Assembly: GCF_024298765.1 (NCBI RefSeq)
Contig: NZ_CP101210.1
Source of the DNA: Escherichia coli
GTDB taxonomy: Bacteria; Pseudomonadota; Gammaproteobacteria; Enterobacterales; Enterobacteriaceae
DNA: 64,000 nt
Direction: 5' to 3' (one strand)
In this document: in pieces, positions 17,579 to 21,982 of the stretch
Layout of the letters: each line of letters starts with the position of its first letter
How positions within the stretch are numbered: the stretch's first letter is position 1
The notes under the pieces: model-generated
Told to the model about the DNA's origin: nothing
What the model saw: the letters and a program-made list of their open reading frames with translations, nothing else
Databases searched by the model: none
Position numbers and translations under genes: made by a program

Positions 17579-18571
17579 TTACAGCAGAGAAGGGACGCTC
17601 TCGCGAACAGCTGCCGGCCATACACCACACTGAACCTGGCCGATATGTGGCAGTTGCAGCAGCAGCATGGTCAAACGAGACTGCCCGATACCGCCGCCGA
17701 TGGTCTGCGGCATTTCACCGCGCAGCAGCGCCTGATGCCACTCCAGCTCCAGGCGATCTTCATCACCGGTCAGCGCCAGCTGATGTTTCAACGTATCGGC
17801 ATCCACGCGGATCCCCATGGAAGAAAGCTCAAACGCATCTTCCAGTACCGGGTTCCATACCAGAATATCGCCGTTCAGACCCGCATGGCCCAGCTCTGAC
17901 GGGGTGCTCCAGTCATCATAATCCGGTGCGCGCACGTCGTGACGATGACCATCACTCAACTTGCCGCCAATCCCGACGAGGAATACCGCGCCAAGATCTT
18001 TCGCAATCGCCCGCTCACGCCCTTTGGCATCGAGATCCGGATAACGAGACAGTAACTCCTGGCTGTGTACGAAGTGGATCTGATCCGGCAGGAACGGTGC
18101 CAGGCCAAACTCTTCGCTAACCGCAGCTTCGGTTGCTTTAATTCCCGCCCAGATCGCCTCTACCGTGCTTTTCAGAGTCGAGAATTGACGCTCACCGTCG
18201 CCCATTACGCGTTCCCAGTCCCACTGGTCAACATAGACCGAGTGCAACGGAGAAAGACGGTCTTCATCGGGGCGAAGGGCTTTCATGTGCGTGTACAGCC
18301 CTTCGCCCGCGCTGAAGTCGTGTTGCCCTAATGTCTGACGTTTCCACTTCGCCAGTGAATGAACCACTTCGAACTGGGCATCAGGCAGAGCTTTCACTTT
18401 TACCTGCACCGCTTTTTCACAGCCCGACAAGTTATCCTGCGTGCCATCCCCCACACGGCTAAGAATCGGCGCCTGGACTTCGATCAGCCCCAGACGTTCT
18501 TCCAGTTGACGGGAAAAGTGAGATTTCACGAAGCTAATTTGACGTTGTTTGGCAATGTAAGCGGTTTTCAT
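17579..18571 (-). CDS. asnA: Aspartate-ammonia ligase (asparagine synthetase A)
   Basis: 330 aa; N-terminus [50 protein letters not shown]; class II aaRS-like fold. Confidence 0.95.
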
Positions 18572-18722
18572 TTTTTATACTCCTGCGTCCTGTTGCTTAT
18601 GATTAAGCAACAAAAACCGACACGCATGCAATAATCATTCAATAAAAAGCCTAACTCACTTTTGATTCATTAAAAAAGAAGGCTAAAATAGAATGAATCA
18701 TCAATCCGCATAAGAAAATCCT

Positions 18723-19181
18723 ATGGAAAATTATCTAATCGACAATCTGGACCGTGGCATCCTGGAAGCATTAATGGGCAATGCGCGCACCGCTTACGCC
18801 GAACTGGCGAAACAATTTGGCGTCAGTCCGGGGACGATTCACGTTCGAGTAGAGAAAATGAAGCAGGCGGGGATCATTACCGGGGCGCGTATTGATGTCA
18901 GCCCGAAGCAGCTCGGTTATGACGTAGGCTGCTTTATCGGCATTATATTAAAGAGCGCCAAAGACTATCCTTCCGCGCTGGCGAAACTGGAAAGCCTTGA
19001 TGAAGTCACTGAAGCCTATTACACCACCGGCCACTACAGCATCTTTATAAAAGTGATGTGCCGTTCGATCGACGCTCTCCAGCATGTACTTATCAACAAG
19101 ATCCAAACAATTGATGAAATTCAGTCCACCGAGACATTGATCGTCCTGCAAAACCCGATCATGCGTACCATCAAGCCCTGA
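18723..19181 (+). CDS. asnC: AsnC/Lrp-family regulator of asnA
   Basis: 152 aa; N-terminal HTH (RTAYAELAKQFGVSPGTIHVRVEKMKQAGII); transcribed divergently from asnA. Confidence 0.95.
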   Translation: MENYLIDNLDRGILEALMGNARTAYAELAKQFGVSPGTIHVRVEKMKQAGIITGARIDVSPKQLGYDVGCFIGIILKSAKDYPSALAKLESLDEVTEAYYTTGHYSIFIKVMCRSIDALQHVLINKIQTIDEIQSTETLIVLQNPIMRTIKP

Positions 19182-19202
19182 TCGGCTTTTTTAATCCCAT
19201 AC

Positions 19203-19211
19203 TTTTCCACA
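19203..19211 (+). promoter_or_regulatory. DnaA-box-like site in mioC promoter
   Basis: TTTTCCACA (one mismatch to TTATCCACA) lies just upstream of a TACAAT -10-like hexamer preceding mioC. Confidence 0.55.
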
Positions 19212-19270
19212 GGTAGATCCCAACGCGTTCACAGCGTACAATATGCCACTCTTAATAAAGGTGGCGGTTT

Positions 19271-19714
19271 ATGGCAGATATCACTCTTATCAGCGGCAGC
19301 ACCCTCGGCGGTGCCGAATATGTAGCAGAACACCTGGCTGAAAAGCTGGAAGAGGCGGGTTTTACCACCGAAACGCTGCACGGTCCGCTGTTGGAAGATT
19401 TATCTGCCTCTGGGATCTGGCTGGTTATCAGCTCAACCCACGGTGCCGGAGATATTCCGGACAACCTTTCTCCTTTCTATGAAGCATTGCAGGAACAGAA
19501 GCCCGATCTTTCTGCGGTCCGCTTTGGCGCAATCGGTATTGGTAGTCGTGAATATGACACCTTTTGTGGGGCTATCGATAAACTCGAGGCAGAACTCAAA
19601 AATTCCGGTGCAAAACAGACAGGCGAAACACTGAAGATCAACATTCTTGATCACGACATTCCGGAAGATCCGGCAGAAGAATGGCTGGGATCGTGGATTA
19701 ATTTACTCAAATAA
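19271..19714 (+). CDS. mioC: FMN-binding flavodoxin-like protein MioC
   Basis: 147 aa flavodoxin fold (ISGSTLGGAEYVAEHL...) immediately adjacent to oriC. Confidence 0.95.
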   Translation: MADITLISGSTLGGAEYVAEHLAEKLEEAGFTTETLHGPLLEDLSASGIWLVISSTHGAGDIPDNLSPFYEALQEQKPDLSAVRFGAIGIGSREYDTFCGAIDKLEAELKNSGAKQTGETLKINILDHDIPEDPAEEWLGSWINLLK

Positions 19715-19720
19715 GTATAC

Positions 19721-20004
19721 AGATCGTGCGATCTACTGTGGATAACTCTGTCAGGAAGCTTGGATCAACCGGTAGTTATCCAAAGAACAACCGTTGTTCA
19801 GTTTTTGAGTTGTGTATAACCCCTCATTCTGATCCCAGCTTATACGGTCCAGGATCACCGATCATTCACAGTTAATGATCCTTTCCAGGTTGTTGATCTT
19901 AAAAGCCGGATCCTTGTTATCCACAGGGCAGTGCGATCCTAATAAGAGATCACAATAGAACAGATCTCTAAATAAATAGATCTTCTTTTTAATACCCAGG
20001 ATCC
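19721..20004. other. oriC chromosomal replication origin (DnaA boxes R1-R4, three 13-mers/DUE, GATC cluster)
   Basis: Reverse-complement orientation of the canonical E. coli oriC. DnaA boxes: TGTGGATAA (about 19737-19745, R4), TTATCCAAA (about 19776-19784), TGTGTATAA (about 19811-19819, R2), TTATCCACA (about 19917-19925, R1). 13-mers as reverse complements: CTAATAAGAGATC, AATAGAACAGATC, AAATAAATAGATC (19939-19982). Multiple GATC sites; GGATCC at the mnmG-proximal boundary. Confidence 0.95.
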
Positions 20005-20092
20005 CAGGTCTTTCTCAAGCCGACAAAGTTGAGTAGAATCCACGGCCCGGGCTTCAATCCATTTTCATACCGCGTTATGCGAGGCAATCACC

Positions 20093-21982
20093 ATGTTTTA
20101 TCCGGATCCTTTTGACGTCATCATCATTGGCGGGGGTCATGCAGGCACCGAGGCCGCGATGGCCGCGGCGCGTATGGGTCAACAGACTCTGCTTTTGACA
20201 CACAATATCGACACTCTGGGGCAGATGAGCTGCAACCCGGCGATCGGCGGTATTGGGAAGGGACATCTGGTAAAAGAAGTGGATGCACTCGGCGGTCTGA
20301 TGGCGAAAGCGATCGATCAGGCGGGTATCCAGTTTAGGATACTAAACGCAAGCAAGGGACCGGCGGTTCGCGCTACCCGAGCTCAGGCGGATCGTGTGCT
20401 CTACCGTCAGGCGGTACGTACGGCGCTGGAGAACCAACCGAACCTGATGATCTTCCAGCAGGCGGTTGAAGATCTTATTGTCGAAAACGATCGCGTGGTC
20501 GGTGCTGTTACCCAAATGGGACTGAAGTTCCGTGCCAAAGCCGTCGTGCTCACCGTTGGGACGTTCCTGGACGGTAAAATTCATATCGGTCTGGATAACT
20601 ACAGCGGTGGCCGTGCTGGTGATCCGCCGTCCATTCCGCTTTCTCGCCGTTTGCGTGAACTGCCGCTGCGCGTTGGTCGTCTGAAAACCGGGACTCCGCC
20701 GCGTATTGATGCTCGAACCATAGACTTTAGCGTGCTGGCGCAACAGCATGGCGATAACCCAATGCCGGTATTCTCGTTTATGGGTAATGCGTCCCAGCAT
20801 CCACAGCAGGTGCCGTGTTATATCACTCATACCAACGAGAAAACCCATGATGTGATCCGCAGTAACCTCGATCGTAGCCCAATGTACGCAGGGGTGATCG
20901 AAGGTGTCGGCCCACGCTACTGCCCGTCGATCGAAGACAAAGTCATGCGCTTCGCCGACAGAAATCAGCATCAGATCTTCCTTGAACCGGAAGGGCTGAC
21001 CTCAAACGAAATTTATCCGAACGGTATCTCCACCAGCCTGCCGTTCGATGTGCAGATGCAAATCGTCCGCTCCATGCAGGGGATGGAAAACGCGAAGATC
21101 GTGCGTCCAGGTTATGCCATTGAGTATGACTTCTTCGATCCACGCGACCTGAAACCGACGCTGGAGAGCAAGTTTATCCAGGGGCTGTTCTTTGCTGGTC
21201 AGATTAACGGCACTACCGGTTACGAAGAAGCCGCTGCGCAAGGTTTGCTGGCTGGTCTTAACGCTGCCCGTCTGTCTGCAGACAAAGAAGGTTGGGCTCC
21301 AGCGCGTTCTCAGGCGTATCTCGGCGTACTGGTTGATGACCTGTGCACTTTAGGAACCAAAGAACCGTATCGTATGTTTACCTCGCGCGCAGAATATCGT
21401 CTGATGCTGCGCGAAGATAATGCAGATCTGCGTTTGACTGAAATCGGTCGTGAACTGGGCCTGGTGGATGACGAACGTTGGGCGCGCTTTAACGAGAAAC
21501 TTGAGAATATCGAGCGTGAGCGTCAGCGTCTGAAATCGACCTGGGTAACCCCGTCGGCGGAAGCTGCAGCCGAAGTGAATGCTCACCTGACTGCGCCGCT
21601 TTCCCGTGAAGCCAGTGGTGAAGATCTGCTACGTCGTCCTGAAATGACTTATGAAAAATTAACCACGCTGACACCGTTTGCCCCTGCGTTGACAGATGAA
21701 CAGGCTGCGGAACAGGTTGAGATTCAGGTTAAATACGAAGGTTATATCGCGCGCCAGCAAGATGAGATCGAAAAGCAGCTGCGTAACGAGAATACCCTGC
21801 TACCAGCGACGCTGGATTACCGCCAGGTATCCGGTCTTTCTAACGAAGTGATCGCCAAACTTAACGATCACAAACCGGCCTCTATTGGCCAGGCTTCGCG
21901 TATTTCTGGCGTCACGCCTGCGGCTATCTCCATTCTGCTGGTGTGGCTGAAAAAACAGGGTATGCTGCGTCGTAGCGCATAA
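20093..21982 (+). CDS. mnmG: tRNA uridine-5-carboxymethylaminomethyl modification enzyme MnmG (GidA)
   Basis: 629 aa; N-terminal FAD-binding motif [15 protein letters not shown]. Confidence 0.96.

What the first reader, a model, noticed from the sequence alone, without database searches (positions are those of the whole stretch)
19195..19270. mioC promoter with DnaA-box-like site directing transcription into oriC
A TTTTCCACA element (one mismatch to the DnaA box) lies next to a TACAAT -10 hexamer just upstream of mioC. mioC has no obvious terminator before oriC, so transcripts would enter the origin from the R4 side. DnaA-repressible mioC read-through is a classical feature and appears conserved here.
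Basis: partly seen in the sequence, partly recalled or inferred. Interest (0 to 1): 0.15.

Follow-up and report, generated by a model that had tools for sequence, protein, structure and literature searches.

The report
Known DnaA-repressed mioC promoter beside oriC
This is the textbook E. coli mioC promoter, whose DnaA-binding site lets the replication initiator switch off transcription that otherwise runs into the chromosome origin; it is real, very well conserved and already thoroughly described.

Summary
The window is an E. coli chromosome with asnA, asnC, mioC, oriC and mnmG (gidA) in the classical order.

- **Elements:** TTTTCCACA lies at 19203-19211. It is the published mioC "R5" DnaA box and an exact match to the relaxed consensus TTWTNCACA. 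TACAAT lies at 19237-19242. The box abuts the -35 (TAGATC, 19214-19219, containing a GATC), not the -10.
- **Match to K-12:** the segment is identical to K-12 MG1655 from the asnC terminator through the -10. The only difference is a rare T (C in K-12) two bases after the -10.
- **Conservation:** in 94 distinct Enterobacterales sequences, the box, the GATC-bearing -35, a CACAGCG block and the -10 are 93-100% identical to the window. The spacer and 5'-UTR are about 45-47%.
- **Read-through:** no terminator-like site lies between mioC and oriC, and R4 begins 23 bp after the stop codon. Published long-read data from K-12 include a capped transcript covering mioC-mnmG-rsmG.
- **Function:** DnaA binding, repression, titration and cell-cycle control of this promoter are all published. 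So is the lack of any replication phenotype when it is inactivated on the chromosome.

The start site and DnaA binding in this strain are inferred by identity, not measured.

The parts
19090..19098 (+). Distal DnaA box TTATCAACA, inside the asnC 3' end. It is taken to be the published R6 box: one misfit to TTWTNCACA and 104 bp upstream of R5.
   Evidence: Found. The gap to the R5 box is 104 bp, counted from the coordinates. It matches the R6 description in Hansen et al. 2007 as I recall it, and PMC5835720 notes that sequences about 100 bp upstream contribute to titration.
19173..19194 (+). asnC intrinsic terminator: a weak 5-bp hairpin (AAGCC...GGCTT) followed by a T6 run, ending 9 bp before the R5 box.
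   Evidence: Terminator scan. RNA fold gives -5.5 kcal/mol, z = -2.07.
19191..19199 (+). Candidate low-affinity DnaA box TTAATCCCA (3 misfits), same orientation as R5 and 3 bp upstream of it.
   Evidence: Inferred from the sequence and from my recollection that Hansen 2007 describes a 43-bp, four-box array with 2-3 bp spacing. Only the CCCA part is partly conserved. The assignment of box names was not verified.
19203..19211 (+). High-affinity DnaA box TTTTCCACA, the mioC 'R5' box of Hansen and colleagues.
   Evidence: Identical in K-12. Named and characterised in PMC5835720. Mean identity to the window is 0.947 over 94 distinct Enterobacterales sequences, with only the third base alternating T/A.
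19214..19222 (+). -35 region: TAGATC at 19214-19219, containing the Dam site GATC at 19216-19219. It overlaps a candidate low-affinity DnaA box, TAGATCCCA.
   Evidence: 17-bp spacer to the -10 and 3 of 6 matches to TTGACA. GATC is conserved in at least 95% of sequences at each base, and GGTAGATCCCA averages 0.933. The box assignment is inferred.
19225..19236 (+). Candidate low-affinity DnaA box GCGTTCACA (19225-19233), whose CACA half belongs to the nearly invariant CACAGCG block (19230-19236) abutting the -10.
   Evidence: CACAGCG averages 0.973 identity, whereas the preceding spacer 19223-19229 averages 0.471. The box assignment is inferred.
19237..19242 (+). -10 hexamer TACAAT.
   Evidence: Mean identity 0.996 over 94 sequences. 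Identical in K-12.
19244..19244 (+). Discriminator polymorphism: T here, C in K-12. This is the only promoter difference from K-12.
   Evidence: Alignment. The T allele is in 68 of 5426 E. coli genomes and the C allele in 5060 of 5426.
19248..19250 (+). Predicted transcription start, 6-8 nt after the -10. This is inferred only.
   Evidence: Promoter geometry. No 5'-end data could be retrieved.
19258..19264 (+). Shine-Dalgarno sequence AAGGTGG, 6 nt before the mioC ATG.
   Evidence: Read directly from the sequence.
19271..19714 (+). mioC CDS (147 aa, FMN-binding flavoprotein).
   Evidence: ORF list. RefSeq annotation of identical E. coli loci.
19737..19982 (.). Minimal oriC, entered by mioC transcription at R4. 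R4 is at 19737-19745 (-), R2 at 19811-19819 (-), R1 at 19917-19925 (+). The 13-mers M (19954-19966) and L (19970-19982) are on the gidA side.
   Evidence: DnaA-box and 13-mer searches. K-12 oriC annotation. Definition of the minimal oriC borders from PMC4585315.
20093..21982 (+). mnmG (gidA), co-directional with mioC. It is the downstream gene reached by transcripts that cross oriC. A promoter-like site lies at 20012-20039.
   Evidence: The b3742|b3741|b3740 transcript is listed in PMC6131387 Supplementary Data 3.

Best explanation
This is the sigma-70 mioC promoter (PmioC) of E. coli with its DnaA operator.

RNA polymerase uses a weak, GATC-containing -35 (TAGATC) and the -10 TACAAT. It probably starts near 19248-19250. 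It transcribes mioC and, because there is no terminator, continues into oriC from the R4 side. Some transcripts end inside oriC and some continue through mnmG-rsmG.

DnaA, most effectively DnaA-ATP, nucleates on the high-affinity box TTTTCCACA (19203-19211). The distal box TTATCAACA (19090-19098) assists. DnaA then spreads cooperatively over adjacent same-orientation weak boxes that cover the -35 and the spacer up to the -10, which excludes RNA polymerase. The promoter is therefore shut just before initiation, when DnaA-ATP peaks, and reopens after initiation. The same array also titrates DnaA.

Shown here: the anatomy, identity to K-12, the cross-genus footprint and the absence of a terminator. 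Taken from the literature on K-12: DnaA binding, repression, titration, cell-cycle timing and read-through. Inferred: the exact start site, the assignment of the three weak boxes, and that this strain behaves like K-12.
For: - **Gene order and annotation:** asnA-asnC-mioC-oriC-mnmG.
- **Match to K-12:** 100% identity from the asnC terminator through the -10, with one substitution at 19244.
- **Within E. coli:** the 52-bp core 19191-19242 is exact in 5010 of 5424 genomes that have a match.
- **Phylogenetic footprint:** loci were collected with an anchor inside oriC, so selection did not depend on the promoter. Over 94 distinct sequences, identity to the window is 0.947 for the box, 0.933 for GGTAGATCCCA, 0.973 for CACAGCG and 0.996 for the -10. 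The spacer is 0.471, the 5'-UTR 0.453 and the upstream flank 0.48-0.53.
- **Terminators:** none on the + strand between mioC and gidA. The stop-to-R4 segment shows no better-than-random folding. 93 of 107 related loci also lack a terminator-like site there.
- **Literature, box and repression:** TTTTCCACA is the mioC R5 box, and box quality determines titration and repression. There are five verified boxes (PMC5835720). DnaA-ATP represses PmioC through five boxes (PMC4585315).
- **Literature, cell cycle and promoter identity:** mioC transcription is off before initiation and on after it. PmioC promoter mutants abolish transcription, as shown by RNA-seq (PMC4446571).
- **Literature, read-through:** some transcripts cross oriC completely (PMC4621074). 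A capped full-length transcript contains b3742|b3741|b3740 (PMC6131387).
Against: - No 5'-end mapping or DnaA-binding data exist for this strain, and I could not retrieve the mapped K-12 start coordinate.
- The -35 is poor and the generic promoter scan misses the promoter.
- The three weak boxes have 3-5 misfits, and their coordinates rest on my recollection of Hansen et al. 2007 plus the conservation pattern. They were not checked against that paper.
- The long-read entry shows that a transcript fully covers mioC but not asnC. This fits PmioC but does not give the start base.
- The physiological importance for replication is weak. Inactivating PmioC on the chromosome does not change initiation timing or synchrony (PMC4446571, PMC4621074, PMC6606810).
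Confidence: 0.93

Rival explanations
1. The conserved box array matters mainly as a DnaA reservoir or titration site flanking oriC, or as a regulator of MioC protein level for cell division. On this view, transcription entering oriC is an incidental by-product with no role in initiation.
For: [quoted passage not shown] Chromosomal PmioC inactivation has no effect on initiation, but it does lengthen cells, and MioC protein complements this (PMC4446571). The -10 and the operator are conserved together with the mioC coding sequence.
Against: This does not exclude the main reading. The same anatomy produces both repression and titration. Read-through is physically documented. The absence of a terminator is conserved in 93 of 107 loci. 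oriC plasmids and crippled origins do depend on mioC or gidA transcription.
Confidence: 0.3
2. Transcripts entering oriC originate mainly from the asnC promoter by read-through of the weak asnC terminator. PmioC and its box would then contribute little.
For: The asnC terminator is weak (5-bp stem, -5.5 kcal/mol) and sits immediately upstream of the box. From my own knowledge, asnC read-through has been described in the older literature (Gielow et al. 1988). I did not verify this here.
Against: PmioC promoter point mutations severely reduce mioC RNA in RNA-seq (PMC4446571). The long-read transcript lists b3742 but not b3743 (asnC) as fully covered. The -10 is 99.6% conserved across genera.
Confidence: 0.05
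3. The TTTTCCACA / TACAAT pair is a chance co-occurrence with no regulatory function.
For: TTTTCCACA occurs 4 times in the 64-kb window. The generic promoter scan does not flag the site.
Against: The segment is identical to an experimentally dissected promoter. Its footprint is 93-100% conserved next to flanks at about 45-50%.
Confidence: 0.01
4. The conserved block around the box is primarily an operator for another regulator (MraZ), not for DnaA.
For: PMC4446571 cites Eraso et al. 2014 for a MraZ site overlapping the mioC promoter DnaA box and a roughly 12-fold drop in mioC transcription on MraZ overexpression. The - strand of 19195-19222 reads TGGGA-N6-TGTGGAA-N5-TGGGA, so it contains TGGGA-like repeats (read).
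Against: DnaA-box substitutions change titration and repression in the way predicted by DnaA affinity. Across genera the box alternates only between the two best DnaA-box variants, TTATCCACA and TTTTCCACA. MraZ binding can coexist with DnaA control.
Confidence: 0.05

Closest known systems
E. coli K-12 mioC promoter (PmioC) with DnaA boxes R5, R6, R7, R8 and A (Lother 1985; Rokeach & Zyskind 1986; Nozaki 1988; Hansen et al. 2006, 2007)
   Same: Same locus, same flanking genes and same orientation towards oriC. The sequence is identical from the asnC terminator through the -10, including TTTTCCACA, the GATC-containing -35, TACAAT and the distal TTATCAACA box 104 bp upstream.
   Different: One base differs: T instead of C at 19244, two bases after the -10. 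This allele is rare, found in 68 of 5426 E. coli genomes. No functional data exist for this strain.
dnaA promoter region (dnaA1p/dnaA2p), autoregulated through a cluster of DnaA boxes
   Same: A sigma-70 promoter repressed by DnaA-ATP. One good box is flanked by closely spaced weaker boxes. It also titrates DnaA, and it contains GATC sites (PMC5835720).
   Different: It is a different locus and gene. It has two promoters with the boxes between them. It is sequestered by SeqA after replication, whereas PmioC is reported not to be sequestered. It can only be partly repressed.
[quoted passage not shown]
   Same: An origin-flanking promoter whose activity is cell-cycle dependent. It is thought to influence oriC topology.
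   Different: It reads away from oriC, has no DnaA boxes and is controlled by SeqA sequestration. Its activity is in the opposite phase: on before initiation and off after it.
datA and DARS DnaA-box clusters
   Same: Chromosomal clusters of DnaA boxes near oriC that bind several DnaA molecules and modulate DnaA availability.
   Different: These act on the DnaA nucleotide state (hydrolysis or ADP release) and need IHF or Fis. They are not promoters that direct transcription into the origin.

Membership tests
E. coli PmioC (DnaA-repressed promoter reading into oriC) | Located in the asnC-mioC intergenic region, immediately upstream of mioC, and oriented towards oriC. | tested here: met
   ORFs and annotation. 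asnC ends at 19181, mioC starts at 19271, and R4 is at 19737-19745.
E. coli PmioC (DnaA-repressed promoter reading into oriC) | Sequence orthology with the experimentally characterised K-12 promoter. | tested here: met
   The pairwise alignment is identical from the asnC terminator through the -10, with a single substitution at 19244. The 52-bp core is exact in 5010 of 5424 E. coli genomes.
E. coli PmioC (DnaA-repressed promoter reading into oriC) | High-affinity DnaA box TTTTCCACA (R5) just upstream of the -35. | tested here: met
   At 19203-19211, an exact match to TTWTNCACA. Named R5 in PMC5835720.
E. coli PmioC (DnaA-repressed promoter reading into oriC) | Second box (R6) about 100 bp upstream, plus flanking weak boxes in the same orientation. 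| tested here: inconclusive
   TTATCAACA is present at 19090-19098, 104 bp upstream. Candidate weak boxes lie at 19191-19199, 19214-19222 and 19225-19233 with 3, 2 and 2 bp spacing, spanning 43 bp. Their identity with the published R7, R8 and A boxes rests on memory of Hansen 2007 and could not be checked, because that paper is not held.
E. coli PmioC (DnaA-repressed promoter reading into oriC) | Transcription start just downstream of TACAAT. | not testable with these tools
   No RNA data exist for this strain. The K-12 TSS tables that I searched did not contain the site, or were truncated. The older mapping papers are not held.
E. coli PmioC (DnaA-repressed promoter reading into oriC) | DnaA binds the box and represses transcription. 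| not testable with these tools
   Published for the identical K-12 sequence (PMC5835720, PMC4585315, PMC4446571). Supported indirectly here by the cross-genus footprint over the box and the promoter.
E. coli PmioC (DnaA-repressed promoter reading into oriC) | No efficient terminator between mioC and oriC, so transcripts enter or cross the origin. | tested here: met
   No terminator-like site. The fold is no better than shuffles. 93 of 107 related loci likewise lack one. K-12 read-through is documented (PMC4621074; PMC6131387).

The most novel reading that the evidence does not exclude
The most novel reading not excluded concerns the near-invariance of the whole operator-promoter unit across Enterobacterales: box, GATC-bearing -35, CACAGCG and -10. 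It may reflect a still-unidentified selective function of DnaA- and Dam-gated transcription into oriC, for example rescue of initiation under stress. The rare T19244 discriminator allele of this lineage might then alter the promoter's stringent (ppGpp) response or its start-site choice.
Probability: 0.07. Interest if true: 0.35.

Novelty: already known. Interest (0 to 1): 0.07.

Why it matters
The finding confirms that the first-stage reader recognised a classical regulatory element from sequence alone: the DnaA-controlled mioC promoter that sends transcription into oriC. The element has been dissected since the 1980s, and its repression is routinely used as a marker of pre-initiation cells, so it adds no new biology. 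The only mildly useful by-product is the cross-genus footprint. It shows very strong purifying selection on the operator and promoter, even though the chromosomal promoter is dispensable for replication in the laboratory. That restates a known open puzzle and does not resolve it.

Tried and rejected
- **Generic promoter scan:** it does not detect PmioC (8 of 12 hexamer matches). I treated this as a limit of the scan, not as evidence against the promoter.
- **Motif statistics:** they cannot establish a single 9-mer, so I relied on orthology and conservation instead.
- **Mapped K-12 start site:** the older papers are not held (PMC205245, PMC210201, PMC25015, PMC4288677). The mBio 2014 operon paper has no held supplements. 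The TSS tables of PMC3415461, PMC4782308 and PMC6131387 gave no hit for mioC or for coordinates near the expected start. A full-text search for mioC with dRNA-seq was uninformative.
- **Split matches in about 350 E. coli genomes:** the 1.5-kb query matched in two pieces, which could have meant a common rearrangement at the promoter. The low-coverage example I inspected (H59) ends at the last base of its record, so that assembly is simply linearised at oriC, and this probably explains most of the others. Only H59 and H60 were examined. H60 is a genuine IS91 insertion between asnC and mioC.
- **Possible terminator inside oriC:** the hairpin plus T5 at 19786-19808 is weak (-5.4 kcal/mol, z = -0.22), and it lies past R4 anyway.

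Full report
**What the window is.** Positions 17.5-22 kb carry asnA (- strand, 17579-18571), asnC (18723-19181), mioC (19271-19714), a non-coding stretch with DnaA boxes, and then mnmG/gidA (20093-21982). A 1.5-kb query from this stretch matches 5424 of 5426 complete E. coli genomes at 95% identity or better. Several match at 100%, and all hits listed are annotated asnC and mioC. In K-12 MG1655 the same order is annotated rsmG-mnmG-oriC-mioC-asnC-asnA. So the window is an E. coli chromosome, and the finding lies in the asnC-mioC intergenic region next to oriC.

**Checking the observation.**
- TTTTCCACA is at 19203-19211 and TACAAT at 19237-19242.
- The best -35 candidate for that -10 is TAGATC (19214-19219), with a 17-bp spacer and 3 of 6 matches. 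It contains a GATC at 19216-19219.
- The box therefore abuts the -35, 2 bp upstream of it, and is not next to the -10.
- It has one mismatch to TTATCCACA, but it matches the relaxed consensus TTWTNCACA exactly.
- An AAGGTGG Shine-Dalgarno sequence sits 6 nt before the ATG.
- A second box with one misfit, TTATCAACA, lies at 19090-19098 inside the end of asnC, 104 bp upstream of the first.
- The asnC terminator, a 5-bp hairpin plus T6, ends 9 bp before the box.

The motifs alone are not statistically compelling. TTTTCCACA occurs four times in the window. The relaxed consensus occurs 12 times against 5.7 expected, but that excess is not specific to this site: oriC contributes three of the 12 and this box one. 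The generic sigma-70 scan does not call the promoter at all. Comparison with other sequences carries the case.

**Comparison with K-12 and within E. coli.** The window and MG1655 are identical from the asnC 3' end through the -10. The only promoter difference is T19244, which is C in K-12, two bases after TACAAT. The 52-bp core 19191-19242 is exact in 5010 of 5424 E. coli genomes. The T19244 allele is rare: 68 of 5426 genomes carry it, against 5060 with the K-12 C.

**Comparison across genera.** To avoid selecting for a conserved promoter, I anchored a species-genome scan on a 17-mer inside oriC (CCGTATAAGCTGGGATC). I then located mioC by tblastn. This gave 97 upstream regions including the window, of which 94 distinct Enterobacterales sequences were aligned. 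They span Escherichia, Citrobacter, Klebsiella, Raoultella, Enterobacter, Cedecea, Siccibacter, Pantoea, Erwinia, Mixta, Rosenbergiella, Pectobacterium, Brenneria, Lonsdalea, Hafnia and Morganella.

The pattern is a textbook phylogenetic footprint. Mean identity to the window is:

| Segment | Mean identity |
|---|---|
| DnaA box | 0.947 |
| GGTAGATCCCA | 0.933 |
| CACAGCG block abutting the -10 | 0.973 |
| TACAAT | 0.996 |
| Spacer 19223-19229 | 0.471 |
| 5'-UTR | 0.453 |
| Upstream flank | 0.48-0.53 |

Within the box, only the third base varies much. It alternates between TTTTCCACA and the perfect TTATCCACA, which are the two best-binding box types according to the literature. The one non-Enterobacterales locus with mioC next to oriC (Ferrimonas, L070) has a different promoter and no box.

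**How it most likely works.** The literature on the identical K-12 sequence supplies the mechanism.
- 'The DnaA Tale' calls TTTTCCACA the mioC (R5) box. Swapping it for other consensus boxes changes DnaA titration and repression of the mioC promoter in line with in-vitro affinity. The region titrates about eight DnaA monomers, sequences about 100 bp upstream contribute, and five boxes are experimentally verified (PMC5835720).
- Frimodt-Moller et al. describe R5 and R6 as high-affinity and R7, R8 and A as low-affinity. They also state that DnaA-ATP represses the promoter before initiation (PMC4585315).
- Lies et al. confirm by RNA-seq that PmioC promoter mutations abolish mioC transcription. 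They summarise the cycle as repression by DnaA before initiation and de-repression after it (PMC4446571).
- The pre-initiation drop of mioC mRNA is still used as a synchrony control (PMC10950094).

From the sequence, three further 9-mers flank R5 in the same orientation, with spacings of 3, 2 and 2 bp. They are TTAATCCCA (19191-19199), TAGATCCCA (19214-19222) and GCGTTCACA (19225-19233). Together with R5 they span exactly 43 bp and cover the -35 and the spacer up to the -10. This agrees with my recollection of Hansen et al. 2007: a 43-bp array of four boxes, 2-3 bp apart, with R6 104 bp upstream. It would also explain the invariant GATCCCA and CACAG blocks. I could not check that paper, so these three assignments are inference.

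The model is as follows. DnaA nucleates at R5, helped by R6. It oligomerises across the weak boxes and occludes the -35 and spacer.

**Read-through.** On the + strand there is no terminator-like site between the asnC terminator and the inside of mnmG. The mioC-stop/R4 segment folds no better than shuffles (z = 0.23). R4 (19737-19745) begins 23 bp after the stop codon. R2 (19811-19819), R1 (19917-19925) and the 13-mers M and L (19954-19982) follow, so transcripts do enter from the R4 side and head towards the unwinding element and gidA.

Among 107 related loci, 93 have no terminator-like site between the mioC 3' end and the oriC anchor. Several of the 14 exceptions lie inside oriC. The E. coli counterpart of that internal site (19786-19808) is weak.

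Published K-12 evidence agrees. [quoted passage not shown] SMRT-Cappable-seq Supplementary Data 3 lists the RegulonDB operon b3741|b3740 as extended to b3742|b3741|b3740. By the authors' definition, at least one capped full-length read therefore covers mioC, oriC, mnmG and rsmG (PMC6131387).

**What remains unshown.** I could not retrieve the mapped 5' end. A start near 19248-19250 is inferred from geometry alone. DnaA binding in this strain is inferred from sequence identity.

[quoted passage not shown] Effects are seen on oriC plasmids, on crippled origins, in thymineless death and in cell length. A MraZ site is also reported to overlap the box, and the - strand of 19195-19222 does carry TGGGA-like repeats.

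**Verdict.** The feature is already known in detail, so interest is low. The cross-genus footprint and the rare discriminator allele are minor by-products.

Noticed in passing
window 19244: The only promoter difference from K-12 is T instead of C, two bases after the -10 in the discriminator. The T allele is rare (68 of 5426 complete E. coli genomes, against 5060 with C). It makes the discriminator of a promoter reported to be under stringent control less GC-rich. Any functional effect is unknown.
   Followed up: partly
L122 (NZ_AP022049.1) 1844-3500, equivalent to window ~19170: E. coli strain WP4-S17-ESBL-08 carries an IS91-family transposase plus a small ORF inserted between asnC and mioC. 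This separates the distal R6 box from the R5 box and promoter by about 1.7 kb and alters the asnC 3' end. It is a natural test of whether R6 proximity matters.
   Followed up: partly
L002-L121, upstream of mioC: The promoter-proximal DnaA box is the perfect TTATCCACA in Cedecea, Siccibacter, Hafnia, Morganella, Pectobacterium, Brenneria, Lonsdalea, Rosenbergiella and some Erwinia. It is TTTTCCACA in Escherichia, Citrobacter, Klebsiella, Raoultella, Enterobacter and most Pantoea. It is off-consensus (CTTTCCACA or TTGTCCACA) in Pluralibacter-like genomes and some Pantoea. The GATC in the -35 is almost invariant.
   Followed up: partly
window 19786-19808 (inside oriC, between R4 and R2): GAACAACCGTTGTTC followed by AGTTTTT forms a weak hairpin plus T-run in the direction of mioC transcription (-5.4 kcal/mol, no better than shuffles). 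Stronger versions at the same place in a few other genera were flagged as terminator-like (for example L005, L026, L052, L100). It might relate to the RNA 3' ends reported inside oriC.
   Followed up: partly
L052, L029 (also L027, L032, L034, L053, L119): Contigs labelled Chryseobacterium sp. 18061 and 'Proteobacteria bacterium OH_SBB_50' carry a typical Enterobacteriaceae mioC-oriC locus (MioC 80-84% identical to E. coli), which suggests contamination or mislabelling. A few MAG contigs from unrelated phyla matched the 17-mer anchor but have no mioC, so they are probably chance matches.
   Followed up: no
E. coli records such as NZ_CP077596.1 (H59): About 350 complete E. coli genomes give a split match to window 18572-20092. 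In the example inspected (H59) this is only because the record is linearised at the mioC/oriC boundary, which is a database artefact and not a rearrangement. The other split records were not checked individually.
   Followed up: partly
window 19195-19222, - strand: The reverse strand reads TGGGATCTACCTGTGGAAAAGTATGGGA, with TGGGA-like repeats overlapping the DnaA box. This is consistent with the MraZ site that Lies et al. 2015 cite from Eraso et al. 2014. I did not check it against the MraZ consensus.
   Followed up: no
L001 2245-2476 (NC_000913.3 3925744-3925975), equivalent to window 19751-19982: The RefSeq oriC feature of MG1655 (232 bp) stops 6 bp short of DnaA box R4 (window 19737-19745). 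The annotated origin therefore excludes a box that defines the right border of the minimal oriC.
   Followed up: no
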